Shown: positions 5,045 through 48,373, counted from the stretch's first letter. The stretch: 64,000 nucleotides of DNA from an uncultured Candidatus Saccharibacteria bacterium (GCA_965231055.1 OZ246411.1:409875-473874), one strand, 5' to 3'. Numbers and translations are program-made. Notes: generated by a model not told the origin, from the sequence alone.

Positions 5045-5047
5045 CCT

Positions 5048-5644
5048 ATGCTAAAAATAAATTTATTGCCAGATGAGGCTATAGAAAGAAAAGATCCTTT
5101 GAGGTTAAAGGCAATAGTTTTTTTTGTCGTAACTATCTTATTTGCTGGGATTTCTATGATTTGGTGCGAAACAAATGTGAGTGGCAAACAGAATCAGTTA
5201 GACAAGGTTAACGATCAGATACAAAAAATACAATCAGATATAGATCAGTATACTAGAGAATCCAAAGACGCTTCTACTTTTTCAAAACAAGCGATGGCAT
5301 TAAAAACATTGCTTAAAAATCACATTAGATGGAGTAATCTTATTGATGAATTGCAGGTTCATTCAAAGGCGGGTGTTGTGTTTACTTCTTTTGAGGGTTA
5401 TAGCGATGGGGCGTTAAATGTACAGGGAGAAGCTTCCTCTTATAGTTTGGTGGCACAGGAGATGAGGAGCTTGGAAGAGGCAACTTATAAAAACGGAGAA
5501 GAAGATGTTTTATTAGTTGATAGCATAGAGCTTTCTGACGCATCTTATGGCGTTATTGATGGATCCTCTGACGGTATAGTCAAATTTTCGATGGCAATTA
5601 AAATAAATCCAAGCATTCTATATGTATTCACTGACCAAAATTAA
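5048..5644 (+). CDS. pilN: type IV pilus assembly protein PilN
   Basis: N-terminal INLLP motif (MLKINLLPDE), single TM, coiled coil; follows pilM. Confidence 0.75.
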   Translation: MLKINLLPDEAIERKDPLRLKAIVFFVVTILFAGISMIWCETNVSGKQNQLDKVNDQIQKIQSDIDQYTRESKDASTFSKQAMALKTLLKNHIRWSNLIDELQVHSKAGVVFTSFEGYSDGALNVQGEASSYSLVAQEMRSLEEATYKNGEEDVLLVDSIELSDASYGVIDGSSDGIVKFSMAIKINPSILYVFTDQN

Positions 5645-6191
5645 AAACAAAAGAAATCTTATTTCTTACGCCCTTTTTCTTCTGGGTGCTGTTGTTTTAA
5701 TCTTTGGGATTTTTATGATCAAAGATCTTTGTTCAAAAAATTCTGACCTGAAATCAGATTTGAATCAGCAGAATATCTCACTTGATTTGAAAAAGCAGGC
5801 GCTATCAAATCTAGAAAGCTTTTTAGAGGAATATAAAACTTCAGCTTCTTCAATTAGCAAAGTAAAATATGCTGTGCCGGAGAAAAAAGATATTCCAGAA
5901 ATCCTAACTCAAATGGAAGTTATTGCTGAGCGAAACTCTTTACAGTTTGATTCCATTACATTTGGATCGTCTTCTGGATCTGAGATGGTTGTTTCTTCGT
6001 CGGAAACAATTCCAGAGGGAGTTGAGAAACTCGACTTGGAACTCAAGGTTGTTGGATCACAAGATAACTTCAAAAAATACATTAAAGAAATCGAAGAAAA
6101 TATTAGAATTATAGACATAGAAAAGATTTCCATAGTTGCTGGTGTCTACAATTTAAATACTAGTGTTTACTATCTAAAAACAAATGAATAA
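5622..6191 (+). CDS. pilO: type IV pilus assembly protein PilO-like
   Basis: N-terminal TM helix plus coiled coil; overlaps the pilN stop; position in operon. Confidence 0.6.
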   Translation: MYSLTKIKNKRNLISYALFLLGAVVLIFGIFMIKDLCSKNSDLKSDLNQQNISLDLKKQALSNLESFLEEYKTSASSISKVKYAVPEKKDIPEILTQMEVIAERNSLQFDSITFGSSSGSEMVVSSSETIPEGVEKLDLELKVVGSQDNFKKYIKEIEENIRIIDIEKISIVAGVYNLNTSVYYLKTNE

Positions 6192-6426
6192 AAGAACCTT
6201 AATACTTTTTATTATCTTGATAGCTGTAGTAGTTTTTGCTTTGTATTATTGGATAAGCAATGAAAGCACCAAGCAAGAAGCTGATGGCAATGTTTATATT
6301 TCGGGGGATACTACTCAGATTGACCTGGATTTTTTGGATGATGAGAATTTTAAAGAATTAAAAGTTTACAATGATCTTCCAGTTCGTTCTGGTGAAACTG
6401 GAAATTTCTCTCTTTTTGGATATTAA
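6184..6426 (+). CDS. small single-TM protein (possible PilP-like accessory)
   Basis: 80-aa ORF with N-terminal TM helix, overlapping the pilO stop and ending 1 nt before the pilB ATG. Confidence 0.5.
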   Translation: MNKRTLILFIILIAVVVFALYYWISNESTKQEADGNVYISGDTTQIDLDFLDDENFKELKVYNDLPVRSGETGNFSLFGY

Positions 6427-6427
6427 A

Positions 6428-8179
6428 ATGCAAAACACAAACACAAAAGATTTATTAGCTATTCTGGTGCAAAATGGAGCCCTACCTCAAAGCAGGGAGG
6501 AGTTTGTTAGAAATGAGAGTTTAAAAACAGGTAAATCCTATGAAGAAGTTATGACTCAGGGGCAATTAGTTGATCCCAAAAATATCGCCAAAGCCAGAGC
6601 CACTCTGTTGGGATTTGATTTTGTTGAGCTTTTGGGTAAAAAAATAGCCGATGATGTTTTGAAAATCATACCAAGAACTGTGGCTGAAAATTACGGATTA
6701 GTGCCATTTGATTTGAAAGATGGTGAGGTGAGCGTGGCAATGAAAAATCCTTCAAATATACAGGCATTAGAGTCTTTGGACTTTGCGCTGAGAGGACAGG
6801 GTAACCTCCGATACAAAATTTTTGTTGTGGATGGTGAGGGTTTGAGCTGGGGTTTGAGACAATATGAAAACCTAAAAGAAGAGGTCGGTGAAGTCTTGAG
6901 AGATGCAGACAAGGAACTCGAAAGAGCTGAGGATGTAGATTTTAGCGGAAAAGGTGATATAGCAAAGGTCGTTGAGAAGGCCCCTGTTAGCAAGGCAATA
7001 GATATAATTTTGAAACATTCCATAGAAGCAGGTGCTAGTGATATTCATGTAGATCCGATGAGTGATTCGGTTAGAATTCGGTATAGAGTAGATGGTGAAT
7101 TGAAAACCGCGATATCTCTTTCCAAAGAAATACACAATGCCCTTGTTGCAAGGATTAAAATACTTTCCAATTTAAAAATAGATGAAAACAGAATTCCACA
7201 AGATGGAAGATTTCATTCAACGATAAACAATAAAGAAGTTGATTTTAGAGTTTCTATTTTGCCCACAGTTAATGGTGAAAAAGTTGTTATGAGAGTCCTT
7301 GATTCCTCTGAGGGAGTACATACGCTCAAAGATTTGGGGATACTTGGAAGCAGATTAAACATAGTTCAAGACTATATAAAAAAAGATCACGGCATGTTGC
7401 TCGTGACTGGACCTACTGGTTCTGGAAAATCCACTACTTTGTATTCTGTTTTGGGAATGATAAATAATTCCAAGGTAAATATCGTGACACTAGAGGATCC
7501 CGTAGAATATTTTATACCAGGAATTTCTCAGTCACAGATAAATCCAAAAATGGGATTTTCGTTTGCTTCTGGGCTAAGATATGTTTTGAGACAAGATCCA
7601 GATGTGATTATGATAGGGGAGATTAGAGATAAAGAAACCGCTGAGATGGCTATTCATGCTTCTTTGACTGGTCACGTGGTGCTATCTACCCTTCACACAA
7701 ACAGCGCTTCGGGAGCTGTGCCAAGATTACTTGATATGGGTATAGAAAAATACCTTCTAATGTCTGCTCTTGATGTTATTGTGGCACAGAGATTGGTAAG
7801 AAAATTATGTAATTATTGCAAGAAAAAAGTTAAGATTACACCAGAAGAAAAAATGATTATAGATAAAGAGTGGAATCAAATCACGGATGAAGAGAAAAAA
7901 CTTTTGGGATTAGGTGATATGAAAATAGTGGAAGAAGTGTATCACGCAAACGGATGCGAGAAATGCGGGGGAGAAGGATATAGGGGTAGAATTGGTATTT
8001 TTGAAATTATTTCAATGACCGAAGATGTCCAAAATGTTGTAGCTGAAAGTCCATCGTCTATAAGGATAAAAGAGGCTGCAAGAAAAGATGGCTTTATGAC
8101 TATGATGGAAGACGGTGTTAGCAAGGTTGCTATGGGACTAACTACAGTAGAAGAAGTGCTCAGAGCAACTCAAGAATAA
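6428..8179 (+). CDS. pilB: type IV pilus assembly ATPase PilB (GspE family)
   Basis: T2SE N-terminal domain, Walker A GPTGSGKST, Asp/His boxes, tetracysteine CNYC...CEKCGG motif; start chosen at the ATG at 6428 rather than the upstream in-frame M at 6371. Confidence 0.9.
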   Translation: MQNTNTKDLLAILVQNGALPQSREEFVRNESLKTGKSYEEVMTQGQLVDPKNIAKARATLLGFDFVELLGKKIADDVLKIIPRTVAENYGLVPFDLKDGEVSVAMKNPSNIQALESLDFALRGQGNLRYKIFVVDGEGLSWGLRQYENLKEEVGEVLRDADKELERAEDVDFSGKGDIAKVVEKAPVSKAIDIILKHSIEAGASDIHVDPMSDSVRIRYRVDGELKTAISLSKEIHNALVARIKILSNLKIDENRIPQDGRFHSTINNKEVDFRVSILPTVNGEKVVMRVLDSSEGVHTLKDLGILGSRLNIVQDYIKKDHGMLLVTGPTGSGKSTTLYSVLGMINNSKVNIVTLEDPVEYFIPGISQSQINPKMGFSFASGLRYVLRQDPDVIMIGEIRDKETAEMAIHASLTGHVVLSTLHTNSASGAVPRLLDMGIEKYLLMSALDVIVAQRLVRKLCNYCKKKVKITPEEKMIIDKEWNQITDEEKKLLGLGDMKIVEEVYHANGCEKCGGEGYRGRIGIFEIISMTEDVQNVVAESPSSIRIKEAARKDGFMTMMEDGVSKVAMGLTTVEEVLRATQE

Positions 8180-8182
8180 AAT

Positions 8183-8560
8183 ATGAACAAGCATCCAAAA
8201 ATAGCTATAGTAGAAGATGATGAGTTTATACTCAATATTTATGAGACTAAATTTAATGAAGAAAAATTTGAAGTTTTTTCTTCTGATAACGGTGCTTCTG
8301 GCATAGAGCTTATAAAAAAAGAAATTCCTGATATTGTGCTTTTGGATATACTATTACCTAAAAAAGATGGATACGAAGTTTTGGCCGAAATAAAGAAGTT
8401 AGAGAAGACTAAAAATATTCCAGTTATTCTGCTTACGAATATGGGTCAAAAGGATAGCATAGAGAAGGGTATGAAATTGGGAGCTAGCGATTATCTCATT
8501 AAAGCTCATTTCACTCCGTCTGAGGTTGTAGGAAAAGTAAAAAGTATTTTGTTAAAATAA
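8183..8560 (+). CDS. single-domain response regulator receiver (CheY/PilH-like)
   Basis: IAIVEDDEF...DIVLLDILLP...DYLIKAHF receiver-domain signature; embedded between pilB and pilT. Confidence 0.8.
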   Translation: MNKHPKIAIVEDDEFILNIYETKFNEEKFEVFSSDNGASGIELIKKEIPDIVLLDILLPKKDGYEVLAEIKKLEKTKNIPVILLTNMGQKDSIEKGMKLGASDYLIKAHFTPSEVVGKVKSILLK

Positions 8561-8569
8561 AATTTTATT

Positions 8570-9643
8570 ATGGCAAATAACGCACAAGCAAAACTAGAAA
8601 AACTAATGTCATTTGTGGCGGAGCAGGGTGGATCGGATCTTCATCTTGATCCAGGGAAGCCTCCTATTATCAGAGTTGATAGAAAACTGATTGAAGTTTC
8701 TGGGGAGAGTGTTATGTCTTCTGAGGATACTCTTGAAGCCGCTAAGTTTTTACTCGGAGATGAGAGATATAAAATTTTTGAAAAAAATAGAGAGTTTGAT
8801 TTTTCATACGCATATGGTGAAAAAGCAAGATTTAGAATAAATACTTATTACAAAATGGGATCGGTCGCAATAGCTATGCGTCTTATTCCCAGAGCCATTA
8901 GAACTATTGAGGAGCTTGGGCTTCCTTCGGTTATAAAGCAATTCGCAAAAGCAGCTCAGGGGCTTGTTATTGTTGTTGGTCCTTCTGGTCATGGAAAATC
9001 TACTACGCTAGCCTCACTCATTGATATTATAAATCATGAGAGGGCTGATCATATAATCACTATCGAGGATCCTATCGAATACATATTTACTCCAGACAAA
9101 AGCTTGATAGCTCAAAGAGAAGTGAATCATGATACCAATTCTTTTTCCAATGCCTTGAAATCGGTTCTTAGAGAAGATGCGAACGTAGTCATGGTGGGTG
9201 AAATGAGAGATCTTGAAACTATTTCTACCACAATTACTGTTGCAGAAACTGGTCATTTGGTCTTTGCTACTTTGCACACAAATGATGCTGCGCAGACTAT
9301 AGATAGAATGATAGATGTGTTTCCTCCATATCAGCAAAATCAAGTCCGGTCTCAGCTTGCAAATATCATCACTGGAGTGGTCTCTCAAAGACTCTTGCCG
9401 AAACTGGGTGGCGGTAGAATGGTAGTTACTGAAATTATGTTTGCAACCCCTGCGATAAGAAACCTAATCAGAGAGGGCAAGACTTACCAAATAAACAGTG
9501 TGATACAGACTAGCGCGGAAGAGGGGATGATCTCTATGGACAAGTCGCTTTCGGAACTCGTGAGAGCAGAAAAAATTTCTATGGATAGTGCTTTGATGTA
9601 TGCAATGAATAAAGATAGTGTGCTCTCTATGTTGAAATCGTAA
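8570..9643 (+). CDS. pilT: twitching motility ATPase PilT
   Basis: N-terminal DLHL..GKPP motif, Walker A GPSGHGKSTT, PilT-type AQREV region. Confidence 0.9.
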   Translation: MANNAQAKLEKLMSFVAEQGGSDLHLDPGKPPIIRVDRKLIEVSGESVMSSEDTLEAAKFLLGDERYKIFEKNREFDFSYAYGEKARFRINTYYKMGSVAIAMRLIPRAIRTIEELGLPSVIKQFAKAAQGLVIVVGPSGHGKSTTLASLIDIINHERADHIITIEDPIEYIFTPDKSLIAQREVNHDTNSFSNALKSVLREDANVVMVGEMRDLETISTTITVAETGHLVFATLHTNDAAQTIDRMIDVFPPYQQNQVRSQLANIITGVVSQRLLPKLGGGRMVVTEIMFATPAIRNLIREGKTYQINSVIQTSAEEGMISMDKSLSELVRAEKISMDSALMYAMNKDSVLSMLKS

Positions 9644-9697
9644 TTATAAAAAGTTAGAGTTAATAATTGATAATTTTTCTTAATATAATTCAAAAAA

Positions 9698-10903
9698 GTG
9701 CCAGTATTTCATTACACAGCAAAGGATAACAATGGTAAGACTCGTTACGGAGAGATAGATTCTGCAAGTGACCAAGTCGCTGCAGATGTTTTGCGTTCAA
9801 GAGGATTGATTGTTGTTGAACTAACAGAAGAAGGAAAGCAAGTTCTAAAAAGAGACATTCAGCCTATCGAAAGAATTACGCTAAAAGATATAGCTATTTT
9901 TTCTAGGCAGCTTTCTACTATGGTAGCTGCGAGCATGCCGCTCACCGGATCTCTCGAGGCGCTAGCTCAAAATACTACCAAGGTTAAGATGAGAAAGATT
10001 ATCGAAAAACTTGCTAAGGATGTTGACGGTGGAGTGAGGTTTTCTATAGCTTTAGCTTCTTACCCAAAGGTTTTTGATGATTTTTATGTAAGCGTGATCA
10101 AGTCTGGAGAGGTAAGTGGAGAAATGGATAGTTCTTTGCTTTACTTGGCTGAGCAGCTTGAGAAAGATTATGACCTGCTTTCTAAACTTAGGGGGGCTAT
10201 GATATACCCTTTGTTTGTTGTAGGGATGTTTTTGGCCGTAGGGGCCTTGATGGTTATCTCTGTTATTCCTCAGCTCAAAAAAGTTTTTGAAGGAATGGAT
10301 CAAGAACTTCCTGCTATGACTCAGGCGCTGTTAAATACGAGTGATTTCATGAGAGGGTATTGGTGGTTAATTCTGGCGGTGGTCGTGTTTGTCGTTTTGG
10401 GGTATAAATGGTATAATAGCACTAAAGAAGGTCATAAAAATATAGACAAAATTAAAATCAGACTCCCCATCTTCGGTAAGATTTTACAAAAAGTTTATGC
10501 AGTGAGATTTGCTAGAAGTTTTTATACTTTGCTAGTTGGTGGGATATCCGTGGTTGAGGCTATAAAAGTTTCAGGTTCTGTGGTGGGAAATGTGGTTTAT
10601 AAAGAAATTGCAGAAGAAGCAGCGAAAAGAGTAGAAAATGGAGACACTGTCGCGAGTGCATTTGAATTACATTCAGAAATACCTTCAATGATGACTCAGA
10701 TGATTAGGGTGGGGGAGAAAACAGGAAAACTCTCTGATGTGCTTGAAAAAGTGGGAGATTTCTATAATCGTGAAGTAAATAACGAAATTTCAAATCTAAC
10801 AGTAACCATAGAGCCATTGATTATGATTGTTCTGGGGGTGGGCGTTTTTATACTTATGGCAGCCATAATTATGCCGATATATAATATTGCTAATAGCTTC
10901 TGA
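9698..10903 (+). CDS. pilC: type IV pilus inner-membrane platform protein PilC (GspF family)
   Basis: two GspF-type repeats, 3 TM segments, position after pilT. Confidence 0.85.
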   Translation: MPVFHYTAKDNNGKTRYGEIDSASDQVAADVLRSRGLIVVELTEEGKQVLKRDIQPIERITLKDIAIFSRQLSTMVAASMPLTGSLEALAQNTTKVKMRKIIEKLAKDVDGGVRFSIALASYPKVFDDFYVSVIKSGEVSGEMDSSLLYLAEQLEKDYDLLSKLRGAMIYPLFVVGMFLAVGALMVISVIPQLKKVFEGMDQELPAMTQALLNTSDFMRGYWWLILAVVVFVVLGYKWYNSTKEGHKNIDKIKIRLPIFGKILQKVYAVRFARSFYTLLVGGISVVEAIKVSGSVVGNVVYKEIAEEAAKRVENGDTVASAFELHSEIPSMMTQMIRVGEKTGKLSDVLEKVGDFYNREVNNEISNLTVTIEPLIMIVLGVGVFILMAAIIMPIYNIANSF

Positions 10904-23620: not shown

Positions 23621-23638
23621 CTTCATCTTTGAAAAATT

Positions 23639-23670
23639 GCGGGTCAAGCCTTTGATCCGCATTTTTATTT
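23639..23670 (+). terminator. intrinsic terminator (copy 1 of a duplicated 43-nt terminator module)
   Basis: GCGGGTCAAG cc TTTGATCCGC + ATTTTTATTT; near-identical to 24220-24251. Confidence 0.75.
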
Positions 23671-24199: not shown

Positions 24200-24219
24200 T
24201 CTTTATTTTTCGATTTAAT

Positions 24220-24251
24220 GCGGGTCAAACCTTTGATCCGCATTTTTATTT
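24220..24251 (+). terminator. intrinsic terminator (copy 2 of the duplicated module)
   Basis: GCGGGTCAAA cc TTTGATCCGC + ATTTTTATTT. Confidence 0.75.
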
Positions 24252-24313: not shown

Positions 24314-25324
24314 ATGATTACAGAAATATTGGTTTTGATTATAGTGGGACTTGTTTTGGCTTTTATTGTCTCTTTATTGCTTACAAACAAGCGCTTTTCA
24401 GAGCTTATAAGAAGAGAAAAAAGCGAAGATAATGAGTCTATGAAGCTTATGCGCGATTGGATAGGTGAAACTAGATCTGAGCTCAAAGAAACTCGCAAAG
24501 AAATTCAGGGCTCAATAGATAAAAACAGGGATTCCGTAGATCGCACCAACAAAGCCATCAGTGAAAGACTAGAAAATGCTTCAAATGTTATAGGCAATGT
24601 GAAATCAGAGCTTGGCGAGATTAAGGAGCTTGGAAGACAGATGAAAGATCTTCAAGACTTTTTGAAATCTCCAAAGCTAAGAGGTAATTTGGGTGAAGAA
24701 ATTTTGAAAGATCTTTTGGGACAAGTACTACCAGTTTCAAAATTCAAACTGCAATATAAATTCAAAGAAGGTCAAATAGTTGATGCTATTATAAAAACAG
24801 AGAAGGGGATTATACCCGTTGATTCAAAATTTCCGCTTGAAAATTTTAGCAAAATGATGAAGGCGCAAACCGAAGATGAGAAAGAGAAATGCAGAAGGAC
24901 TTTTGTGATGGATGTAAAAAAGCATATCAATGACATTTCAAAAAAATATATATTACCGCTTGAGGGGACTGTTGATTTTGCTGTGATGTATGTTCCTTCG
25001 GATTCAATATATTACGAAATAATAATGAAAAGCGAAGAGCTCAACTTTTTTGCGCGAGAACAAAAAGTTTTGCTAGTATCTCCCAATTCATTTTATTATT
25101 TTATGAGAGTGGTATTGATGGGCATGGAAGGGCAGAGAATAGAGGAGCAGGCAGAAAAAATACTCAAGACACTTTCCACGATTCAGCAGGACTCCAAAAA
25201 GCTTGAAAAAGATTTGGGCGTGCTTTCTCGTCACATCACCAATGCTAAAAATTCGATGGATTCTACCATGAATAGATATGGAAAACTCGCAAACAAAATA
25301 GACAACGTAAGGCTTCTGAAATAA
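24314..25324 (+). CDS. rmuC: DNA recombination protein RmuC
   Basis: N-terminal TM, long coiled coil, C-terminal RmuC nuclease-like region (NLGEEILKDLL ... VDFAVMYVPSDS). Confidence 0.75.
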   Translation: MITEILVLIIVGLVLAFIVSLLLTNKRFSELIRREKSEDNESMKLMRDWIGETRSELKETRKEIQGSIDKNRDSVDRTNKAISERLENASNVIGNVKSELGEIKELGRQMKDLQDFLKSPKLRGNLGEEILKDLLGQVLPVSKFKLQYKFKEGQIVDAIIKTEKGIIPVDSKFPLENFSKMMKAQTEDEKEKCRRTFVMDVKKHINDISKKYILPLEGTVDFAVMYVPSDSIYYEIIMKSEELNFFAREQKVLLVSPNSFYYFMRVVLMGMEGQRIEEQAEKILKTLSTIQQDSKKLEKDLGVLSRHITNAKNSMDSTMNRYGKLANKIDNVRLLK

Positions 25325-25352: not shown

Positions 25353-26126
25353 ATGGAAAAAAGTATAAATATAGACAATCTAAATATAAACTATAAAACT
25401 TTTGGTAAGGGAGTAGATCTTTTGGTTTTGCATGGCTGGGGAGGATCCTCTGATTCCTATATAGAATTTGGAAAGCATATCGAAAAAATGGGTTTTAGAG
25501 CTATAGTTCCTGATCTTCCTGGTTTTGGCAAAAGTGACGCGCCCAAAGAACCTTGGACCGTGAATGATTATGTTCAATTCGCTAGGCTGTTTGTAAAGAG
25601 CCTAGGAATGAATAAATTTTTGCTTTTTGGACATTCATTTGGCGGAGGAATAGCTGCAAAATGGATGAGTGAAAATCCCGCAGAAATTTCCGGATTGGTT
25701 CTGTGTGCGCCTGCTATTATAAGAGACAAGAAAACTTTCAAAAAATCACTTTTCAAATTTATTGCAAAAACAGGCAGGGGGTTTCTCAATATCTCTAAAT
25801 CCCAAAAGCTTCACAGCATTGGAAAAAAAGCATTGTATAAAATCGCAAGAGAGCATGATTATGAAAAAGCATCTGGCGTGATGCAAGAGACTTTTAAAAA
25901 CGCTGTTTCGGAGGATCTGCTTAGTGTATTGCAGCAAATAAAAAAACCAACACTAATTGCATGGGGAAGGGGAGACAAATATACTCCCATATCTGAAAGT
26001 GAATTTGTAAAAAAAGCTATACCAAATTCAAAGCTAGTTATTTTTGAAAAAGCTAGGCACGGAATACATCTACAAGAGCCCAAGAAATTATCTTTGGAAA
26101 TAAAAAACTGGAGTAAAAATATATGA
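25353..26126 (+). CDS. alpha/beta hydrolase fold protein
   Basis: HGWGGS oxyanion region and GHSFGG nucleophile elbow. Confidence 0.8.
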   Translation: MEKSINIDNLNINYKTFGKGVDLLVLHGWGGSSDSYIEFGKHIEKMGFRAIVPDLPGFGKSDAPKEPWTVNDYVQFARLFVKSLGMNKFLLFGHSFGGGIAAKWMSENPAEISGLVLCAPAIIRDKKTFKKSLFKFIAKTGRGFLNISKSQKLHSIGKKALYKIAREHDYEKASGVMQETFKNAVSEDLLSVLQQIKKPTLIAWGRGDKYTPISESEFVKKAIPNSKLVIFEKARHGIHLQEPKKLSLEIKNWSKNI

Positions 26127-27694
26127 TTATACTTATTTTGTATGTTTTTTTGTTTGCCTTCAAAAGTTTTTATCATTTAAGGATGTGGCAAATAAAAGAA
26201 TACAGAACGGATAGATATGCTGCCATGTTAAGGACAAAGCCAGGTAGGGATTTTGTTTTTGGTAAAGAATTTATTTTCAAACTTTCGCTATTTGTATTTG
26301 CGTTAGTATTTATAGATATCTCTTTTGGAGATTTTGGAATATTTTCATATGTAGTATTTTTACTACTTTTTTTGTTGAGTATTTTGTATTTTTTCAAGAA
26401 GAGAAAACTTGCTAAAATGACTCCTAGGATGTTATTGACTGCGATAGTTTTGATTTTTATAACTACTGGATTGGGTGTGTTTTTGTACGATAAAACGCTA
26501 GATATTTATCCTTTGGTTTTGGTGGATCTCTGCATTCCTTTATTGGCGTGGATTGCTGTTGTTTTGGTTAGTTTTCCAGCTAATGCTATAAAAAAATCTA
26601 TTTACAATAAGGCGAAGAAAAAACGAGAATCCTTAAAACATCTAAAAGTGATAGGCATTACGGGGAGTTTTGGAAAATCTACTGTTAAGGATTTCTTGGC
26701 CACAATACTTGAGGAGAGGTTTAATGTTCTTAAAACAGAAAAAAACCAAAACACCGAGATGGGTATATCTAAAATGGTTATTGATAAATTGGATGAGAAC
26801 TGCGAGGTTTTGGTTGTTGAAATGGGTGCATACAAGATGGGTGAGATAAAAACTCTTTGCGATATAACAAAGCCACAAATAGGCGTTCTTACGGGAATAA
26901 ATGAGCAACACCTAGACACATTTGGTTCTATAGAAAATACTCAAAAAGGTAAATACGAACTGATTGAGTCATTACCTAAAGATGGAGCTTCATTCTTCAA
27001 TGCGGATAATCAGTACTCACTCTCGCTTGCACAAAAAACAAAAGGCAATGTTTTTACTTATGGCGCAGGTATAAAATCAGATTTTATATACAAAAATCTG
27101 AAAGCAGAAGGCGATTTAATAAGTTTTGATTTTTGTTCCCAGCAAGGTTCTAGTTGTGTAAAAGTAAAAGTTTGCGGCAAGCACAATGCATCAAATATAG
27201 TCGCCGCTATTTCGGTGGCACTTTATATGGGGCTTTCTATGGAAGAAATACTTGCGGGACTTCAAAAGATAGAAGTTCCAAGTAATGCGATAAGAGTTTA
27301 TCAAGGTATTAATGGCTCTTCTATTGTAGAGGATTCTTACAATTCAAATCCTGACGGAGTGATTTCAGCGCTAAAATATCTGAATAGTGTAAATAAAAAA
27401 CACAAAGTTGTTGTGATGCCATGTCTTATTGAACTAGGAAAAAAATCCAAACAGATACATGAAGATTTGGGTCGTCGTTTTTCAGCAGTTGCAGATGATA
27501 TTATTATTACTACTCCGGATTTTCTCAAATCAATCATGAAAGGCTCTGGTGAATACAAAAGTAGAATTAAATTTATACCAGATGCAAAGAGTATAAATTC
27601 CGAAATAGAAAGAATTGTCGATAAAAACTCAGCTATATTGATAGAGGGTAGGGTGGACAATAGCGTAATAGAATTTTGTAAAAAACATGAATAA
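26123..27694 (+). CDS. Mur ligase family protein (MurF-like central and C-terminal domains) with an N-terminal polytopic membrane domain
   Basis: about 170-aa N-terminus with 5 predicted TM helices; then GITGSFGKST P-loop, EMGAYKMGEI, GVLTGINEQHLDTFGS matching MurF motifs; start overlaps the hydrolase stop. Confidence 0.75.
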   Translation: MIILILYVFLFAFKSFYHLRMWQIKEYRTDRYAAMLRTKPGRDFVFGKEFIFKLSLFVFALVFIDISFGDFGIFSYVVFLLLFLLSILYFFKKRKLAKMTPRMLLTAIVLIFITTGLGVFLYDKTLDIYPLVLVDLCIPLLAWIAVVLVSFPANAIKKSIYNKAKKKRESLKHLKVIGITGSFGKSTVKDFLATILEERFNVLKTEKNQNTEMGISKMVIDKLDENCEVLVVEMGAYKMGEIKTLCDITKPQIGVLTGINEQHLDTFGSIENTQKGKYELIESLPKDGASFFNADNQYSLSLAQKTKGNVFTYGAGIKSDFIYKNLKAEGDLISFDFCSQQGSSCVKVKVCGKHNASNIVAAISVALYMGLSMEEILAGLQKIEVPSNAIRVYQGINGSSIVEDSYNSNPDGVISALKYLNSVNKKHKVVVMPCLIELGKKSKQIHEDLGRRFSAVADDIIITTPDFLKSIMKGSGEYKSRIKFIPDAKSINSEIERIVDKNSAILIEGRVDNSVIEFCKKHE

Positions 27695-28919
27695 ATTTAT
27701 CTCCATATCATTATCTCCCAATGTGCAAAAGCAGGATATCTTTCTTGCTTCAAAGCTTTTGTTTTCCCCAAATAAAATAAATGGAGGTGCTATAGCTGAA
27801 TTTACAAATAAATTTAAAGAAAAAGTGGGTCTAGAAAGTGCCTGGACTCTAAACAGTGGGCGATCTGCTCTTATGTTACTGCTTAGGTCGTTATCATTAG
27901 ATTCTGATGACGAAGTATTGCTCCAAGCTTTTTCATGTAATGCAGCAGTAAATCCTATACTGTGGACTCCAGCAAAGCCAGTGTTTGTGGATATAGATGA
28001 TTCTTACAACATAGATCCCGAAGATTTGCTCAGAAAAATAACGGCTAAATCAAAGGTCGTGATAGTTCAACATACATTTGGTGTGCCTGCAAGGATGGAT
28101 GAGATTATGAAAATATGCAAAGAAAAAAATCTTTTTCTTATTGAAGACTGTGCGCATTCCCTAGGCGCTAAATACAAAGAAAAAACAGTGGGAACTATGG
28201 GAGATGCTTCGTATTTTTCTTTTGGACGAGACAAAGTGATCTCTTGTGTTTACGGAGGATTGCTTTCGGTGAAGGACGAAAAACTGGCAAAGAAGATTAA
28301 CGAAAAATATGAGGATTTGGAGTTTCCTTCTACTTCTTGGACTATTCAACAGCTACTGCATCCTATATTGATGAGTTTCGTGGTAAAGACCTATGCTTCT
28401 GGTTTTGGAAAAGCTTTGTTGGTTTTGTTTCAAAAAATTGGATTACTGTCAAAAGCGGTGACTAAGGGGGAGAGGATTGGAATAAAGCCCAAGTATTTTC
28501 CATATAAACTTCCAGATGCGCTTGCTCGTTTGGCAATAACCCAGTTATCAAGAATTGACGAGTTTAATGAGCATAGAAACAAGATAGCTAGTTTATACGA
28601 AGCATTTTTTATGAGTTCAGGCTTTGAATACACAAAACGAAACGACGAAGTTAATCCAAATTTTTATAGATTTACATTGAGACATAAAAAAGCTCATGAT
28701 ATTATAAAAACTTGCTGGAAAAACAATCTACTTATCGGTGATTTTTATACATCAGTGCTGATTCCCAATGGCACCGATCTTTCTATTTTTGGGTATCAAG
28801 AGGGAAGCTGCCCTAGGGCTCAAATTGCTTCGCAAGAAACCTTTAATTTACCTACTCATATCAATATAGGTGAAGTAGACGCTAAATACATATCAGATTT
28901 CATTAAGTCTCTAAACTAA
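27687..28919 (+). CDS. DegT/DnrJ/EryC1/StrS-family PLP-dependent aminotransferase
   Basis: LNSGRSAL, DDEVLLQAFSCNAAVNPI, FLIEDCAHSLGA, FSFGRDKVIS (candidate Schiff-base Lys). Confidence 0.8.
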   Translation: MNKFISISLSPNVQKQDIFLASKLLFSPNKINGGAIAEFTNKFKEKVGLESAWTLNSGRSALMLLLRSLSLDSDDEVLLQAFSCNAAVNPILWTPAKPVFVDIDDSYNIDPEDLLRKITAKSKVVIVQHTFGVPARMDEIMKICKEKNLFLIEDCAHSLGAKYKEKTVGTMGDASYFSFGRDKVISCVYGGLLSVKDEKLAKKINEKYEDLEFPSTSWTIQQLLHPILMSFVVKTYASGFGKALLVLFQKIGLLSKAVTKGERIGIKPKYFPYKLPDALARLAITQLSRIDEFNEHRNKIASLYEAFFMSSGFEYTKRNDEVNPNFYRFTLRHKKAHDIIKTCWKNNLLIGDFYTSVLIPNGTDLSIFGYQEGSCPRAQIASQETFNLPTHINIGEVDAKYISDFIKSLN

Positions 28920-29936
28920 ATGACGGTAAAGGAAATAACTAACAAAAAAATTTGGGATGAATTTGTTCTAAATTATCCCATAAAATCATTTCTTCACTCA
29001 TGGAGCTGGGGCGAGTTTAATAAAAACACAGAAGATAAAATTTTTAGATTAGGAGTTTTTGAGGGTGACAGTGTTTTGGGAGTGGCTTTGATTATTAAAG
29101 TAAAAGCCAAAAGAGGTACTTTTCTTTTTTGTCCTCATGGACCACTCATTGACTGGAATGATCGAAAACAATTTGGAGTATTGGTTGAATACCTTAAAAA
29201 ACTTTCCAAAGCAGAGAAGTGTAGTTTTGTGCGTATTAGTCCTTTGATTTTGGAAAATAGTGATAACCAAAAATTGTTTGGTAGCTTCGGTTTTAGGCCC
29301 GCTCCTATTCACATGCACGCTGAAATCACATGGACACTTGATATTAGTAAGTCAGAGGATGAGCTCATGAAAGAAATGAGAAAGACCACGAGATATTGCG
29401 TGAAAAGAGCAATCAAGGACGGGGTTAAAATCGAAATGAGTAAAAATATCTCAGATGTTGAGGTTTTTAATAATGTTCACAAGGCTACCGTTGAGCGCCA
29501 TAAATTTGTGCCTTTTTCACTTCATTATCTGGAGGAGCAATTCAAAGAATTTTCAAAAGAAGATGAAATTGTTGTTCTAAAAGCTAGTTATTGTGGGGAA
29601 GTGTTGGCGTCATCAATAATAGTTTTTTATGGAGAGAGTGCCTTTTATCATCACGGTGCCTCAACCAATAAATATCCCAAGATCCCTGCTTCGTACTTGA
29701 TGCAATGGGAAGCCATAAGGGAAGCAAAAAGAAGAGGTAAAAAAATCTACAATTTTTGGGGAATAGCTCCTACCGATAATCCAAAACATCCTTTTCATGG
29801 AATAACAACTTTCAAGATGGGATTCGGAGGTAGTCGTACTGATTACATGCATGCACAGGACTTACCACTAAGCTTTGGATATTTCAAGGCATGGTTAGTT
29901 GATACAGTAAGAAGTAAAAAACGAGGGTTCAAATAG
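28920..29936 (+). CDS. FemAB-family peptidyl/aminoacyl transferase (GNAT-like)
   Basis: FLHSWSWGEFNK N-terminus, RYCVKRAIKDGVKIEMS, two-lobed FemX-like organisation; start abuts the DegT stop. Confidence 0.75.
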   Translation: MTVKEITNKKIWDEFVLNYPIKSFLHSWSWGEFNKNTEDKIFRLGVFEGDSVLGVALIIKVKAKRGTFLFCPHGPLIDWNDRKQFGVLVEYLKKLSKAEKCSFVRISPLILENSDNQKLFGSFGFRPAPIHMHAEITWTLDISKSEDELMKEMRKTTRYCVKRAIKDGVKIEMSKNISDVEVFNNVHKATVERHKFVPFSLHYLEEQFKEFSKEDEIVVLKASYCGEVLASSIIVFYGESAFYHHGASTNKYPKIPASYLMQWEAIREAKRRGKKIYNFWGIAPTDNPKHPFHGITTFKMGFGGSRTDYMHAQDLPLSFGYFKAWLVDTVRSKKRGFK

Positions 29937-30018: not shown

Positions 30019-30348
30019 ATGAGTAGTGATATGAGAAATCGATTGAGAGATTTGTGTGAGCTTATCGCTGAAGTGATAAAACAGGGGCATTTGGATTCAA
30101 ATGATGTGAGGCCCATTGAAAGATTCGAAGGCGCAGTCTCTATTTACGAGCTTGATTTCCCGGACAATCCTAATGGAAAAATCACTTTTTGGGTTAATCC
30201 TAACACGCAAAAAATAATGCAGATCGTTGTTTCTTGGAATGGGGAAACTTTCAAAACAGTGATGAAGTTCCAGGGTGGATCAATTAGGGGTGGAGAATTC
30301 TTTATCGAGCGGGTGAGATTGTCTCATGTCTGCGAAGATTTGTTCTAA
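30019..30348 (+). CDS. hypothetical protein (109 aa)
   Basis: strong SD AGGAGGGAGG; no recognisable motif. Confidence 0.6.
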   Translation: MSSDMRNRLRDLCELIAEVIKQGHLDSNDVRPIERFEGAVSIYELDFPDNPNGKITFWVNPNTQKIMQIVVSWNGETFKTVMKFQGGSIRGGEFFIERVRLSHVCEDLF

Positions 30349-46696: not shown

Positions 46697-48373
46697 ATGT
46701 CTTATAAGTATTTAAATTGCAAAAAGGTAGAATCTCTTTTGTCTAAAAAAGATATGGCGAAAGAGATTTTTGAAGAATTAGAGTTTGGTCCTAATTCAGC
46801 TTTTTCTATTTGTAGGGCAAAGAGCCAGAAGCCTGGTAGTTTTGTGCTTCAAAAATATCCTTCAAATAAGCTCAAGAAATGGCCAATTTTCTCAGGCTCT
46901 TATCGGGTGAGAGATCCTAGGTGTTCAGTTGCCGTTGCTTTTCCTTTTCAGGAGGAGGTGCTTTTGGAGGAGGCACTGAGGGCTGGGGCCGCGATTGCTG
47001 GACCCTGTGTTACTCCGGACTTGGGGCCCGAGATAGTGATATCCAATATATTGGCAAACCCAAATATTAGATATCTTATTGTTGCGGGAAAAGAAAGTGG
47101 GCATATGTCTGGAGACATACTTAGTAATGCAAATTGGAACGGAGTAGATCCTAAAACAAAAAGAGTAATTGGAACTAAGTCAAAATCAAATCCTTATTTT
47201 CAAAACTTATCCCAAGAAGATATAGAAAAGTTTAAAAAAAGAGTAAAAGTGATAAATTTCATTTCTCCTTATTTTCCGGAAGACAGAAAAAACGTGGCTA
47301 ATACTATTAAGCTAATAGTAAGATGCTGTTTGCAAGAACCTTGGAATAAAATAAGATTCAAAAATAAAATGACGGGTCAGGATATTGTTCTATTTGATCC
47401 TGGATCGGAGGGTTTAAGTCCACATATTACGGCACTAAAAAAACCAGAAACAACGATAGTAGCTGAGGGTATTAGTAGAAATGGATCTAGTATTCACGCT
47501 AGGTATTTGGCAGATGCATACGAACCTTTTAAATCTTATTTATTGGTTCATGGCTCATGGGGTAAGGAAGAATCTGGCAGATTTGCTCTAGATATGCCGG
47601 GTTTTCAAATTACCATAGAAGATACTACTAAAAACTTAGTACCTCGTCGTTGGTATCCGGAGGGTTGGCTTACAAAGTTTAACGAAGTTGTGAATTACGT
47701 AGAGAGCTATGCTACGTGGGTTTATTTATTCCCTCTATCTATTATTAGAAAATCTTTGGGAAAATATCCAATGCCATATATTCCAGACATGAAGCTGATA
47801 GATTATTCTTACGGTACCAGGATAACGACATACTGGATAGATCTAGCATCTAGAAAAGAGAAGCGTCGAATAATAAAAAATGTTGAAGAAATTCACAAAA
47901 AATATTGTTCAGGTAAAAAAGTGCCTTCATTTGATGAAATAATAAAATTTCACGAAAAACTTTCCAAGGTGCAAAAAAAATCATTCAACCAGCTCAGGAG
48001 TGTTGCTAGGCAAGTTGCTTTATGTGTAAAAGAGGGAATAGGCGCTTCTTATAGAATTTATATGAGTTTGCATATTCCTATTTTTGATATGAATGATGAT
48101 CCCAGGGAAGCGCATCAGCCTTGTTTTATTGCTTACGCTTTTTATCCGAGACTCATCGAAAATAAATGGCAGCTAGACGCTGTTATGTATATGAGGGCCA
48201 ATGATGTTAGAGCTATGCCTGCAAATGCATATGGTGGAATAAAGCTCATGCACTTTGTGGCACATTGGGCTTCTAAGATTGCAAAAAAGAGGATTTTACC
48301 TGGAGTTTATACTCATCAAACAGGATGTGCTAATTATTGCGATTATATGTTGCCTAAGAATTTCAAGAAATAA
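46697..48373 (+). CDS. thymidylate synthase (ThyA/dCMP-hydroxymethylase superfamily)-like protein with a roughly 400-aa N-terminal extension
   Basis: C-terminal QPCFIAYAFYP ... LDAVMYMRANDVRAMPANAYGGIKLM aligns with the ThyA PCH ... LSCQLYQRSxDVFLGLPFNIASYALL core (Cys, Arg, Asp, Asn conserved); the N-terminal 400 aa is unrecognised. Confidence 0.6.
   Translation: MSYKYLNCKKVESLLSKKDMAKEIFEELEFGPNSAFSICRAKSQKPGSFVLQKYPSNKLKKWPIFSGSYRVRDPRCSVAVAFPFQEEVLLEEALRAGAAIAGPCVTPDLGPEIVISNILANPNIRYLIVAGKESGHMSGDILSNANWNGVDPKTKRVIGTKSKSNPYFQNLSQEDIEKFKKRVKVINFISPYFPEDRKNVANTIKLIVRCCLQEPWNKIRFKNKMTGQDIVLFDPGSEGLSPHITALKKPETTIVAEGISRNGSSIHARYLADAYEPFKSYLLVHGSWGKEESGRFALDMPGFQITIEDTTKNLVPRRWYPEGWLTKFNEVVNYVESYATWVYLFPLSIIRKSLGKYPMPYIPDMKLIDYSYGTRITTYWIDLASRKEKRRIIKNVEEIHKKYCSGKKVPSFDEIIKFHEKLSKVQKKSFNQLRSVARQVALCVKEGIGASYRIYMSLHIPIFDMNDDPREAHQPCFIAYAFYPRLIENKWQLDAVMYMRANDVRAMPANAYGGIKLMHFVAHWASKIAKKRILPGVYTHQTGCANYCDYMLPKNFKK

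What the first reader, a model, noticed from the sequence alone, without database searches (positions are those of the whole stretch)
25353..29936. Tightly coupled operon: alpha/beta hydrolase, membrane-anchored MurF-like ligase, DegT aminotransferase, FemAB transferase
Four genes are translationally coupled, with start/stop overlaps of 4, 8 and 0 nt. The Mur-ligase member keeps the MurF-type ATPase and C-terminal domains. Its usual N-terminal substrate-binding domain is replaced by a roughly 170-aa domain with five TM helices. It is followed by a DegT-family PLP aminotransferase of the sugar-nucleotide 4-aminotransferase type, and a FemAB-family enzyme, a family known for aminoacyl-tRNA-dependent peptide branch formation. 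This combination looks like a membrane-associated pathway that builds an amino-sugar-peptide conjugate, for example an unusual cell-wall or surface-glycan decoration. It does not look like a standard murC-F/ddl arrangement. I do not recognise it as a described pathway.
Basis: partly seen in the sequence, partly recalled or inferred. Interest (0 to 1): 0.6.

Follow-up and report, generated by a model that had tools for sequence, protein, structure and literature searches.

The report
Membrane-anchored MurF cell-wall operon
The four genes are real and tightly packed, but the odd ligase is most likely this bacterium's ordinary peptidoglycan enzyme MurF in a widespread, apparently undescribed membrane-anchored form that always comes with a serine hydrolase partner.

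Summary
Four + strand ORFs (25353-29936) overlap by 4, 8 and 0 nt and encode an alpha/beta hydrolase, a 5-TM + MurF-type ligase, a DegT PLP enzyme and a FemX-like transferase.

By HMM, PDB sequence search, fold and tree, the ligase is MurF-clade, not CapB, MurT or cyanophycin synthetase. It lacks MurF domain 1.

In 80 related loci the hydrolase sits directly upstream in 72 of 73 testable cases. This covers Patescibacteria, Tissierellia and other Firmicutes, Poribacteria and Chloroflexota.

Outside Patescibacteria the next gene is Ddl (30 loci). In Poribacteria and Microgenomates the pair occupies the murF slot of the dcw cluster (ftsI-murE ... mraY-murD-ftsW-murG). No canonical murF lies within 10 kb.

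In Patescibacteria, DegT and FemAB follow instead (27 loci) and never occur with Ddl.

My reading is a peptidoglycan-precursor module. It contains a variant housekeeping MurF and its hydrolase partner, plus a lineage-specific DegT/FemX pair for stem-peptide branching or modification. It is not a separate amino-sugar-peptide pathway.

The roles of the TM domain, the hydrolase and DegT remain unknown. I found no published description. I could not test whether this genome has a second murF.

The parts
25353..26126 (+). Cytoplasmic alpha/beta-fold serine hydrolase (257 aa), the obligate upstream partner of the TM-MurF. Substrate unknown.
   Evidence: Pfam Abhydrolase_1 2.4e-35. No NCBIfam equivalog reaches its cutoff. 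The triad S95/D208/H236 and the HGW oxyanion motif are conserved in >=91-100% of 74 syntenic orthologues. No hydrophobic segment. Found directly upstream of the ligase in 72 of 73 loci.
26123..26626 (+). N-terminal membrane domain of the ligase (about 168 aa, five TM helices). It carries conserved cytoplasmic-loop motifs: WQxKEYxxxR in Patescibacteria, with Q23 and Y27 conserved across all phyla, and KxPxxT around T100.
   Evidence: Alignments A1 and A2 and the cross-phylum alignment. Topology. AF2 pLDDT about 80. No PDB fold match, best E = 2.2. The profile finds 949 clusters, all N-terminal and, where full length, 480-585 aa, i.e. fused to a MurF-type ligase.
26627..27694 (+). MurF-type ATP-dependent ligase. 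It has a central domain with the P-loop GITGSFGKS and a C-terminal domain with the MurF-type DSYNSNP motif. Canonical domain 1 is absent.
   Evidence: NCBIfam murF TIGR01143 scores 249.7 bits over profile positions 61-405, against 82-89 bits for murC/D/E, 49 for cyanophycin synthetase, 31 for PgsB and 26 for MurT. The best PDB sequence hits are all MurF, led by 4ZIY at 2.7e-40. The top 10 Foldseek hits are all MurF. The NJ tree groups it with canonical MurF at 98% bootstrap.
27687..28919 (+). DegT/DnrJ/EryC1-family PLP enzyme (410 aa) of a subfamily whose named members are all Patescibacteria. Substrate unknown.
   Evidence: Pfam 1e-63. No NCBIfam equivalog reaches its cutoff; the best is LegC-like at 164 bits against a cutoff of 420. 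K183 and D154 are invariant in 30 orthologues. Homologues are 50-55% identical, and all named ones are Patescibacteria. Only residues 33-204 align well to solved sugar aminotransferases.
28920..29936 (+). FemX-like aminoacyl-tRNA-dependent transferase of the FemAB family (338 aa, no coiled-coil insert).
   Evidence: Pfam FemAB 4e-42. Best PDB hits are S. aureus lipid II:glycine glycyltransferase 6SNR at 1.5e-21 and Weissella FemX at 1e-9. The F298-K299-x-GFGG motif is invariant in 36 orthologues.

Best explanation
The locus is a peptidoglycan-precursor module.

Its conserved core is a two-gene unit: a cytoplasmic serine alpha/beta hydrolase and a membrane-anchored MurF. The MurF keeps the ATP-binding and C-terminal domains of the D-Ala-D-Ala-adding enzyme. 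It has swapped the UDP-binding domain 1 for a 5-TM domain whose conserved residues lie in cytoplasmic loops.

This TM-MurF is most likely the organism's housekeeping MurF. I infer that it adds the terminal dipeptide to the MurNAc-tripeptide precursor at the membrane, next to MraY.

In Patescibacteria the unit is extended by two genes:
- A FemX-like enzyme. I infer that it uses an aminoacyl-tRNA to add a branch residue to the stem peptide made by MurF.
- A conserved DegT-family PLP enzyme with an unassigned step. My preferred guess is a modification of the precursor or of the branch residue.

What is shown: domain identities, conservation of catalytic residues, topology and synteny. What is inferred: substrates, complex formation, and the roles of the hydrolase, the TM domain and DegT.
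For: MurF identity:
- The murF HMM scores 250 bits against <=89 for any other Mur-type family.
- PDB sequence and fold searches return MurF first.
- The NJ tree joins TM-MurF and canonical MurF at 98% bootstrap, excluding MurC/D/E.

Synteny:
- In 30 non-Patescibacteria loci the next gene is Ddl, the enzyme that makes MurF's substrate.
- Poribacteria show RsmH-..-FtsI-MurE-[hydrolase-TM-MurF-Ddl]-MraY-MurD-FtsW-MurG-MurC.
- Microgenomates-type loci show FtsI-MurE-MurC...[hydrolase-TM-MurF-DegT-FemAB]-x-MraY-(MurD)-FtsW-MurG-FtsQ-FtsA-FtsZ.
- Chloroflexota show TM-MurF followed by MraY.
- Every other Mur ligase in these loci is MurC, MurD, MurE or cyanophycin synthetase. None is a canonical MurF.

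Module conservation:
- The hydrolase lies upstream in 72 of 73 loci with a median gap of 3 nt, and its catalytic triad is conserved.
- The TM domain is found only at the N-terminus of MurF-length proteins: 949 clusters, with full-length hits of 480-585 aa.
- The conserved N-domain residues Q23, Y27 and T100 lie in K/R-rich cytoplasmic loops.

FemX and annotation:
- FemX acts on the product of MurF in known systems. The best NCBIfam hit is the UDP-MurNAc-pentapeptide-lysine N6-alanyltransferase family and the best PDB hit is a lipid II glycyltransferase.
- NCBI and JGI already name the homologues MurF, including those of cultured Tissierella, Tepidimicrobium and Anaerosalibacter.
Against: - Canonical domain 1 is missing, and the protein falls below the TIGR01143 cutoff (249.7 < 288.6).
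- I could not scan this genome, or any complete genome carrying the module, for a second canonical murF. 'Sole MurF' therefore rests on +-10 kb of synteny.
- In this window the operon is not next to dcw genes. RmuC lies upstream and a UvrD-like helicase downstream.
- The invariant catalytic triad of the hydrolase, and the conserved residues in the TM domain's cytoplasmic loops, imply chemistry or binding that the textbook MurF step does not need.
- No dehydratase or oxidoreductase that could supply a keto-sugar substrate for DegT is in the operon.
- The TM-MurF clade itself has only 58% bootstrap, and only three canonical MurFs, all proteobacterial, were in the tree.
Confidence: 0.68

Rival explanations
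1. The TM-MurF is a MurF-derived paralogue that works on a membrane-bound acceptor rather than on UDP-MurNAc-tripeptide. One version has it adding D-Ala-D-Ala to a lipid-linked tripeptide or tetrapeptide precursor. Another has it salvaging stem peptides, with the hydrolase trimming or de-esterifying the substrate first, much as an LdcA-like step feeds MurF.
For: - The UDP-binding domain 1 is lost and replaced by a conserved 5-TM domain with no PDB fold match.
- The conserved N-domain residues include E85 and D135, which lie inside the TM3 and TM5 spans drawn.
- An obligate, catalytically intact serine hydrolase partner is present.
- The Ddl linkage fits any D-Ala-D-Ala-adding reaction.
- Absence of a canonical murF elsewhere in the genome was not tested.
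Against: - The gene occupies the murF slot between murE and mraY in dcw clusters that contain murC, murD and murE but no other murF.
- If it were not MurF, these clusters would lack an essential step.
- The motifs conserved across all phyla are in cytoplasmic loops rather than in the bilayer.
Confidence: 0.17
2. The four genes form a self-contained membrane-associated pathway, separate from peptidoglycan precursor synthesis, that builds an amino-sugar-peptide conjugate as a surface-glycan or wall decoration.
For: - DegT-family enzymes usually aminate nucleotide keto-sugars.
- FemAB-family enzymes can aminoacylate amines.
- The four genes travel together, even away from dcw genes as in this window.
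- DegT is strongly conserved across Patescibacteria at 50-55% identity.
Against: - The ligase and hydrolase occur without DegT and FemAB in every non-Patescibacteria locus, where they pair with Ddl instead.
- The ligase is MurF by every sequence and fold measure.
- In Patescibacteria relatives the four genes are embedded between murE/murC and mraY/ftsQ.
- There is no glycosyltransferase, sugar dehydratase or flippase in the operon.
- Five loci keep FemAB without DegT.
Confidence: 0.08
3. In Patescibacteria, DegT and FemAB functionally replace Ddl. They would supply or build the C-terminal residues by a PLP- and tRNA-dependent route.
For: - DegT/FemAB and Ddl occupy the same position after TM-MurF and are mutually exclusive: 27+5+1 loci against 30, with none having both.
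- No Ddl lies within +-10 kb of any Patescibacteria locus or in the 64-kb window.
Against: - The pattern coincides with phylogeny.
- tRNA-dependent Fem transferases acylate amines and cannot extend a peptide C-terminus.
- A survey of 4,062 CPR genomes reports abundant van/ddl-type ligase hits (PMC8651080), so Ddl is probably encoded elsewhere.
- Five loci have FemAB without DegT.
Confidence: 0.05

Closest known systems
MurF (UDP-MurNAc-tripeptide:D-Ala-D-Ala ligase; E. coli 1GG4, A. baumannii 4ZIY/4QF5, T. maritima 3ZL8)
   Same: - The central ATPase and C-terminal domains match, with the P-loop and the DSYN(A/S)NP-type motif.
- MurF is the best hit by HMM, PDB sequence search and fold.
- Gene context with ddl, murE and mraY in relatives.
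   Different: - The roughly 90-aa UDP-binding domain 1 is absent and replaced by a 5-TM domain of about 160 aa.
- The score is below the TIGR01143 cutoff.
- It always comes with an upstream serine hydrolase.
- Canonical MurF is a soluble enzyme (established knowledge; PMC10214165).
ddl-murF operons of Firmicutes and natural Mur fusions (MurE-MurF, MurF-Alr, MurC-Ddl)
   Same: MurF is physically or genetically coupled to neighbouring pathway steps. TM-MurF-Ddl adjacency occurs in 30 loci.
   Different: - The added part is a membrane domain plus a separate hydrolase, not another pathway enzyme.
- The survey of Mur chimeras in PMC10214165 does not mention 'transmembrane' or 'hydrolase' at all.
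MurT/GatD, PgsB/CapB and cyanophycin synthetase (Mur-ligase-fold enzymes with non-MurC-F roles; MurT/GatD acts on lipid II, per the NCBIfam family name)
   Same: The Mur ligase M and C domains are used without the canonical domain 1. MurT/GatD acts on membrane-linked lipid II.
   Different: HMM scores are far lower: MurT 26 bits, PgsB 31 bits and cyanophycin synthetase 49 bits, against 250 bits for murF. The locus has no GatD, PgsC or PgsA partners.
FemX (Weissella UDP-MurNAc-pentapeptide:L-Ala transferase; S. aureus FmhB, lipid II:Gly transferase)
   Same: - FemAB family, about 335 aa and without the coiled coil, like Weissella FemX.
- Conserved FK-GFGG motif.
- Encoded right after MurF, whose product is the FemX substrate.
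   Different: - Low identity; no NCBIfam equivalog cutoff is reached (62 bits against 500).
- The amino acid used and the acceptor (nucleotide or lipid precursor) are unknown.
DegT/DnrJ/EryC1 sugar aminotransferases (PseC, LegC, PglE, ArnB)
   Same: Full-length Pfam match. The PLP lysine K183 and D154 are conserved.
   Different: - The C-terminal half aligns poorly to solved members.
- The usual SGT motif reads SGR, with R59 invariant.
- It sits inside cell-division/cell-wall clusters with no sugar dehydratase beside it.
- All named homologues are from Patescibacteria.

Membership tests
MurF (D-Ala-D-Ala-adding Mur ligase) | Mur ligase central (ATP-binding) and C-terminal domains, with best similarity to MurF rather than to other Mur-fold ligases | tested here: met
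   Pfam M and C domains. TIGR01143 scores 249.7 bits against <=89 for murC/D/E and <=49 for cyanophycin synthetase, PgsB and MurT. PDB and Foldseek top hits are all MurF. NJ tree support is 98%.
MurF (D-Ala-D-Ala-adding Mur ligase) | N-terminal domain 1 that binds the UDP-MurNAc moiety | tested here: not met
   The HMM match starts at profile position 61. Only about 20 residues separate TM5 from the P-loop. Residues 1-~157 are five TM helices.
MurF (D-Ala-D-Ala-adding Mur ligase) | Reaches the curated NCBIfam cutoff for murF | tested here: not met
   249.7 bits against a cutoff of 288.6. The shortfall corresponds to the missing first 60 profile positions.
MurF (D-Ala-D-Ala-adding Mur ligase) | Genomic context of a housekeeping murF (with ddl, or between murE and mraY in the dcw cluster) | tested here: met
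   Met in relatives: Ddl follows in 30 loci, and the gene fills the murF slot of the dcw cluster in Poribacteria, Microgenomates and Chloroflexota. Not met in this window itself, where RmuC and a UvrD-like helicase flank the operon.
MurF (D-Ala-D-Ala-adding Mur ligase) | Only murF-type gene in the genome | not testable with these tools
   Only +-10 kb around each locus and the 64-kb window could be read. No canonical MurF was found there.
MurF (D-Ala-D-Ala-adding Mur ligase) | Catalyses UDP-MurNAc-tripeptide + D-Ala-D-Ala + ATP -> pentapeptide | not testable with these tools
   Needs an enzyme assay or a complementation experiment.
FemAB / FemX aminoacyl-tRNA transferases | FemAB-fold domain with conserved catalytic and tRNA-acceptor-end residues | tested here: met
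   Pfam FemAB 144.9 bits against a cutoff of 24. F298-K299-x-G-F-G-G is invariant. I equate this with Phe304/Lys305 of Weissella FemX from memory of the literature, which is a lead and not a test. PDB hits are 6SNR and 1NE9.
FemAB / FemX aminoacyl-tRNA transferases | Equivalog-level identity to a characterised FemX | tested here: not met
   NF047883 scores 62 bits against a cutoff of 500. TIGR03019 scores 58 bits against 260.
DegT/DnrJ/EryC1/StrS PLP enzymes | Full-length family match with the PLP-binding Lys and the Asp that contacts the pyridine nitrogen | tested here: met
   216 bits against a cutoff of 19.8, covering profile positions 13-358 of 360. K183 and D154 are 100% conserved.
   The best NCBIfam hits (LegC-like, PseC, ArnB) are all far below their cutoffs. 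The C-terminal half aligns poorly to solved enzymes. No keto-sugar-forming gene is in the operon.
alpha/beta-hydrolase fold serine hydrolases | Nucleophile elbow G-x-S-x-G, acid and His triad, and an oxyanion motif | tested here: met
   GHSFGG with S95, plus D208, H236 and HGW at 27-29, conserved in 91-100% of 74 orthologues. Abhydrolase_1 scores 122.8 bits.
alpha/beta-hydrolase fold serine hydrolases | Assignment to a characterised subfamily (lipase EstV, BioH, MenH, proline iminopeptidase and others) | tested here: not met
   All 33 NCBIfam hits are far below their cutoffs; the best is EstV at 117 bits against 300. PDB sequence hits are generic, with E values around 1e-19.

The most novel reading that the evidence does not exclude
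The hydrolase + TM-MurF pair could be a distinct, ancient, membrane-coupled way of finishing the peptidoglycan precursor. It is used by hundreds of species-level lineages, including most Patescibacteria, Tissierellia, Poribacteria and some Chloroflexota. In this reading the TM domain and the serine hydrolase take part in the chemistry or in substrate handling. Examples would be acting on or handing over to a lipid-linked intermediate or MraY, or editing or trimming the stem peptide. The Patescibacteria-wide DegT enzyme inside the dcw cluster would then catalyse a so far unknown modification of the precursor.
Probability: 0.25. Interest if true: 0.75.

Novelty: new variant of a known kind. Interest (0 to 1): 0.55.

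Why it matters
Mur ligases are textbook soluble, three-domain cytoplasmic enzymes and established antibiotic targets.

A MurF that lacks its nucleotide-binding domain, is built into the membrane and is always partnered with an active serine hydrolase would change how the last cytoplasmic step of wall synthesis is pictured. This would apply to a large part of bacterial diversity, including Patescibacteria, which make up a large share of bacterial lineages.

It would also give a concrete entry point to the cell-envelope biology of Patescibacteria. The DegT/FemX pair sits in their division and cell-wall cluster.

Cultured carriers exist (Tissierella, Tepidimicrobium, Anaerosalibacter, [Clostridium] ultunense), so the question can be tested directly.

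If the protein turns out to be an ordinary MurF with an anchor, the locus is simply a correctly annotated housekeeping operon.

Tried and rejected
- CapB/PgsB, MurT and cyanophycin-synthetase affiliation of the ligase. Rejected on HMM scores.
- Other architectures for the TM domain. A profile search of 1.84 billion representatives found it only at the N-terminus of MurF-length proteins or fragments.
- Ddl in the window or in Patescibacteria loci. None was found. This says nothing about the rest of those genomes.
- A canonical murF beside the module. Every neighbouring Mur ligase was MurC, MurD, MurE or cyanophycin synthetase.
- RmuC (24314-25324) and ORF109 (30019-30348) as operon members. They are not conserved next to the module in relatives. 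ORF109 has no Pfam or NCBIfam hit.
- Literature. Nine full-text searches and five papers gave no description of a membrane-anchored MurF, of the hydrolase-murF pair, or of DegT/FemAB in Patescibacteria wall clusters. One search failed on syntax.
- Scanning this genome for a second murF.


Full report
**Observation**

The window carries four + strand ORFs at 25353-26126, 26123-27694, 27687-28919 and 28920-29936. I read the junctions directly. They are ATGA (4-nt overlap), ATGAATAA (8-nt overlap) and TAA followed at once by ATG.

Pfam assigns the four products as follows:
- Abhydrolase_1.
- Mur_ligase_M + Mur_ligase_C, with no N-terminal Mur domain.
- DegT_DnrJ_EryC1.
- FemAB.

The first ~157 residues of the ligase form five hydrophobic helices. 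K/R-rich loops lie at residues 21-47, at 93-102 and after TM5. This puts the N-terminus outside and the ligase domain in the cytoplasm. The AF2 helices agree. The other three proteins have no membrane segments.

The surrounding 64 kb is housekeeping DNA of a small, 37% G+C genome. It encodes type IV pilus genes, LigA, GatA/B, PheST, GyrB, ThrRS and three tRNAs. The same ligase protein is on record on a contig of 843,892 bp. The closest named homologues are all Patescibacteria (CPR).

**What the ligase is**

NCBIfam's murF model scores 249.7 bits over profile positions 61-405. murC, murD and murE score 82-89 bits, cyanophycin synthetase 49, PgsB 31 and MurT 26. The score is below the murF cutoff of 288.6 because the first 60 profile positions, which are domain 1, have no counterpart.

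Other measures agree:
- The seven best PDB sequence matches are all MurF, led by 4ZIY at 2.7e-40. The next match (8F5D, 8.1e-20) is a MurE-MurF fusion protein. The best plain MurE is at 1.9e-14.
- The MurF-type DSYN(A/S)NP motif is present as DSYNSNP.
- An AF2 model (pLDDT 84.5, pTM 0.77) has MurF structures as its ten best Foldseek hits.
- In an NJ tree of the ligase domains, the TM-type proteins and three canonical MurFs form one clade at 98% bootstrap, excluding MurC, MurD and MurE. The TM-type clade itself has only 58% support.

So the protein is MurF-clade, not a CapB-, MurT- or cyanophycin-synthetase-type enzyme. It lacks the UDP-binding domain 1.

**The membrane domain**

Full-length homologues (about 40% identity, 96-100% coverage, 480-585 aa) are very numerous. 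A profile of the N-terminal domain alone finds 949 clusters at 50% identity, 525 of them at E <= 1e-10.

Every hit carries the domain at its N-terminus. Each is either of MurF length or an obvious fragment. No other architecture appeared.

Within Patescibacteria the motif W22-Q23-x-K25-E26-Y27-x3-R31 is invariant. Across all phyla the following survive, and all lie in the two cytoplasmic loops:
- Q23 (25 of 26 sequences).
- Y27 (26 of 26).
- K95 (21 of 26).
- A proline at the position of A97 (22 of 26).
- T100 (24 of 26).

The isolated domain model (pLDDT 80) has no significant PDB fold match (best E = 2.2). This conservation pattern argues that the domain is more than a passive anchor.

**Neighbourhood in relatives: the key result**

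Of these, 585 encode a relative of the ligase, and I examined the best 80 loci with up to +-10 kb each. I used tblastn and clustering of all ORFs.

First, the alpha/beta hydrolase lies directly upstream of the ligase in 72 of 73 loci with enough flank. The remaining locus has one ORF in between. The loci are titled Patescibacteria, Tissierellia, Clostridia, Bacilli, Erysipelotrichaceae, Poribacteria and Chloroflexota, plus a few Bacteroidales and "Gammaproteobacteria" labels. The median gap is 3 nt. The triad S95/D208/H236 and the oxyanion motif are conserved in 91-100% of 74 orthologues.

Second, the downstream gene splits cleanly among 68 loci with enough flank:

| Downstream of TM-MurF | Loci |
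|---|---|
| DegT + FemAB | 27 |
| FemAB only | 5 |
| DegT only (short contig) | 1 |
| Ddl | 30 |
| Neither | 5 |
| DegT/FemAB together with Ddl | 0 |

The Ddl identity was confirmed by Pfam and by tblastn.

Third, dcw-cluster context recurs:
- Poribacteria: RsmH-..-FtsI-MurE-[hydrolase-TM-MurF-Ddl]-MraY-MurD-FtsW-MurG-MurC.
- Microgenomates-type Patescibacteria: FtsI-MurE-MurC...[hydrolase-TM-MurF-DegT-FemAB]-x-MraY-(MurD)-FtsW-MurG-FtsQ-FtsA-FtsZ.
- Chloroflexota: TM-MurF followed by MraY.
- Parcubacteria-type loci: MreC-x-PBP-GreA-class II aaRS-SerRS-[four genes]-FtsQ, sometimes preceded by MurI-MurD-FtsW-MurG.

Every additional Mur ligase in these loci is MurC, MurD, MurE or a cyanophycin synthetase. 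None is a canonical MurF.

The TM-type protein thus takes the murF position next to murE, mraY and ddl in several phyla.

**Interpretation**

The best reading is that this is the lineage's housekeeping MurF in a variant, membrane-anchored form. Hydrolase + TM-MurF is the conserved core module. Source annotations already call the homologues MurF, including those of cultured Tissierella, Tepidimicrobium, Anaerosalibacter and Caldisalinibacter.

The FemAB protein is FemX-like:
- It is 338 aa with no coiled coil.
- Its best PDB hits are S. aureus lipid II:Gly transferase and Weissella FemX.
- Its FK-GFGG motif is invariant.
- In known systems FemX acts on the product of MurF, so its position directly after MurF is logical. 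An earlier survey already noted a peptidoglycan bridge-formation protein in most Parcubacteria genomes (PMC4508563).

DegT is an intact PLP enzyme (K183 and D154 invariant). It is unusually well conserved at 50-55% identity, and every homologue that carries an organism name is from Patescibacteria. Its C-terminal half aligns poorly to solved sugar aminotransferases. No gene that could make a keto-sugar accompanies it. Its step is unknown.

The hydrolase has no informative subfamily assignment. Possibilities include trimming or editing of stem peptides, de-esterification, and a role in a complex with the TM domain. None was testable here.

**Rivals**

1. The TM-MurF could be a paralogue that acts on a lipid-linked or recycled acceptor. 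The loss of domain 1, the conserved membrane domain and the obligate hydrolase favour this. The dcw synteny argues against it.
2. The core pair occurs without DegT and FemAB and with Ddl elsewhere. The ligase has a clear MurF identity. The four genes are embedded in dcw clusters.
3. The idea that DegT + FemAB replace Ddl fits the mutually exclusive pattern. It conflicts with Fem chemistry, since these enzymes acylate amines. It also conflicts with a report of abundant van/ddl-type ligase hits across 4,062 CPR genomes (PMC8651080). The pattern may simply follow phylogeny.

**Limits**

- I could not scan this genome, or any complete genome carrying the module, for a second murF. This is the main gap.
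- In this window the operon is flanked by RmuC and a UvrD-like helicase rather than by dcw genes.
- Several MAG titles are doubtful. "uncultured Gammaproteobacteria" loci have the Patescibacteria gene order, and a few loci carry Bacteroidales labels. I therefore rest the argument on gene content rather than on names.
- The tree is a simple NJ tree with three canonical MurFs, all proteobacterial. I transcribed those sequences by hand from PDB alignments.

**Novelty**

Nine full-text searches and five papers gave no description of a membrane-anchored MurF, of the hydrolase-murF pair, or of DegT/FemAB in Patescibacteria wall clusters. One of the papers was a 2023 survey of natural Mur fusions, which mentions neither 'transmembrane' nor 'hydrolase'.

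I rate the locus a new variant of a known kind. The enzyme family and pathway are known and the gene is already annotated as MurF. The architecture, the obligate partner and the Patescibacteria DegT are unexplained.

Noticed in passing
L040:2253-3428, L042:4329-5627, L051:508-1749: The MurE proteins in Microgenomates-type dcw clusters are short (391-432 aa). They match the murE models only from about profile position 71-90 onward, so they also appear to lack Mur ligase domain 1. MurC and MurD in the same loci are full length.
   Followed up: partly
L002-L033 (Parcubacteria-type loci), e.g. L024:5198-6661 and L013:7896-9161: A class II (Asp/Lys/Asn-type) aminoacyl-tRNA synthetase and SerRS lie directly upstream of the hydrolase-MurF-DegT-FemAB block in about 25 loci. 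This could hint at which aminoacyl-tRNA the FemX-like enzyme uses, or it could be mere synteny.
   Followed up: no
L009:2891-4036; L011:13926-15005: Some Patescibacteria loci carry extra genes between DegT and FemAB: an M20-family peptidase in L009 and a DUF4015 putative glycosyl hydrolase in L011.
   Followed up: partly
window 46697-48373 (+): A 558-aa protein has a clear MtrA domain (tetrahydromethanopterin S-methyltransferase subunit A, PF04208, 113 bits). This is unexpected in a Patescibacteria-like genome.
   Followed up: no
window 404-3847 (+): A 1147-aa ORF with no Pfam match at E <= 1e-5 lies immediately upstream of a type IV pilus gene set (PilM, PilB-, PilT- and PilC-like; 3983-10903).
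   Followed up: no
window 23638-23661 and 24217-24244 (+): Two nearly identical terminator-like hairpins (TGCGGGTCAA[G/A]CCTTTGATCCGCA followed by a T-run) follow two small unrelated ORFs, just upstream of RmuC and the operon.
   Followed up: partly
L024, L026, L036 (titles 'uncultured Gammaproteobacteria'); L070, L074, L075, L077 (Bacteroidales-type titles): The record titles of several MAGs look inconsistent with their gene content. The 'Gammaproteobacteria' loci have the Patescibacteria-type gene order, so taxon labels in this collection should be treated with care.
   Followed up: no
L044:54-1358: The 3' part of a cyanophycin synthetase gene, cut by the locus edge, lies about 8 kb upstream of the hydrolase-TM-MurF-Ddl trio in a Clostridiaceae MAG.
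   Followed up: no
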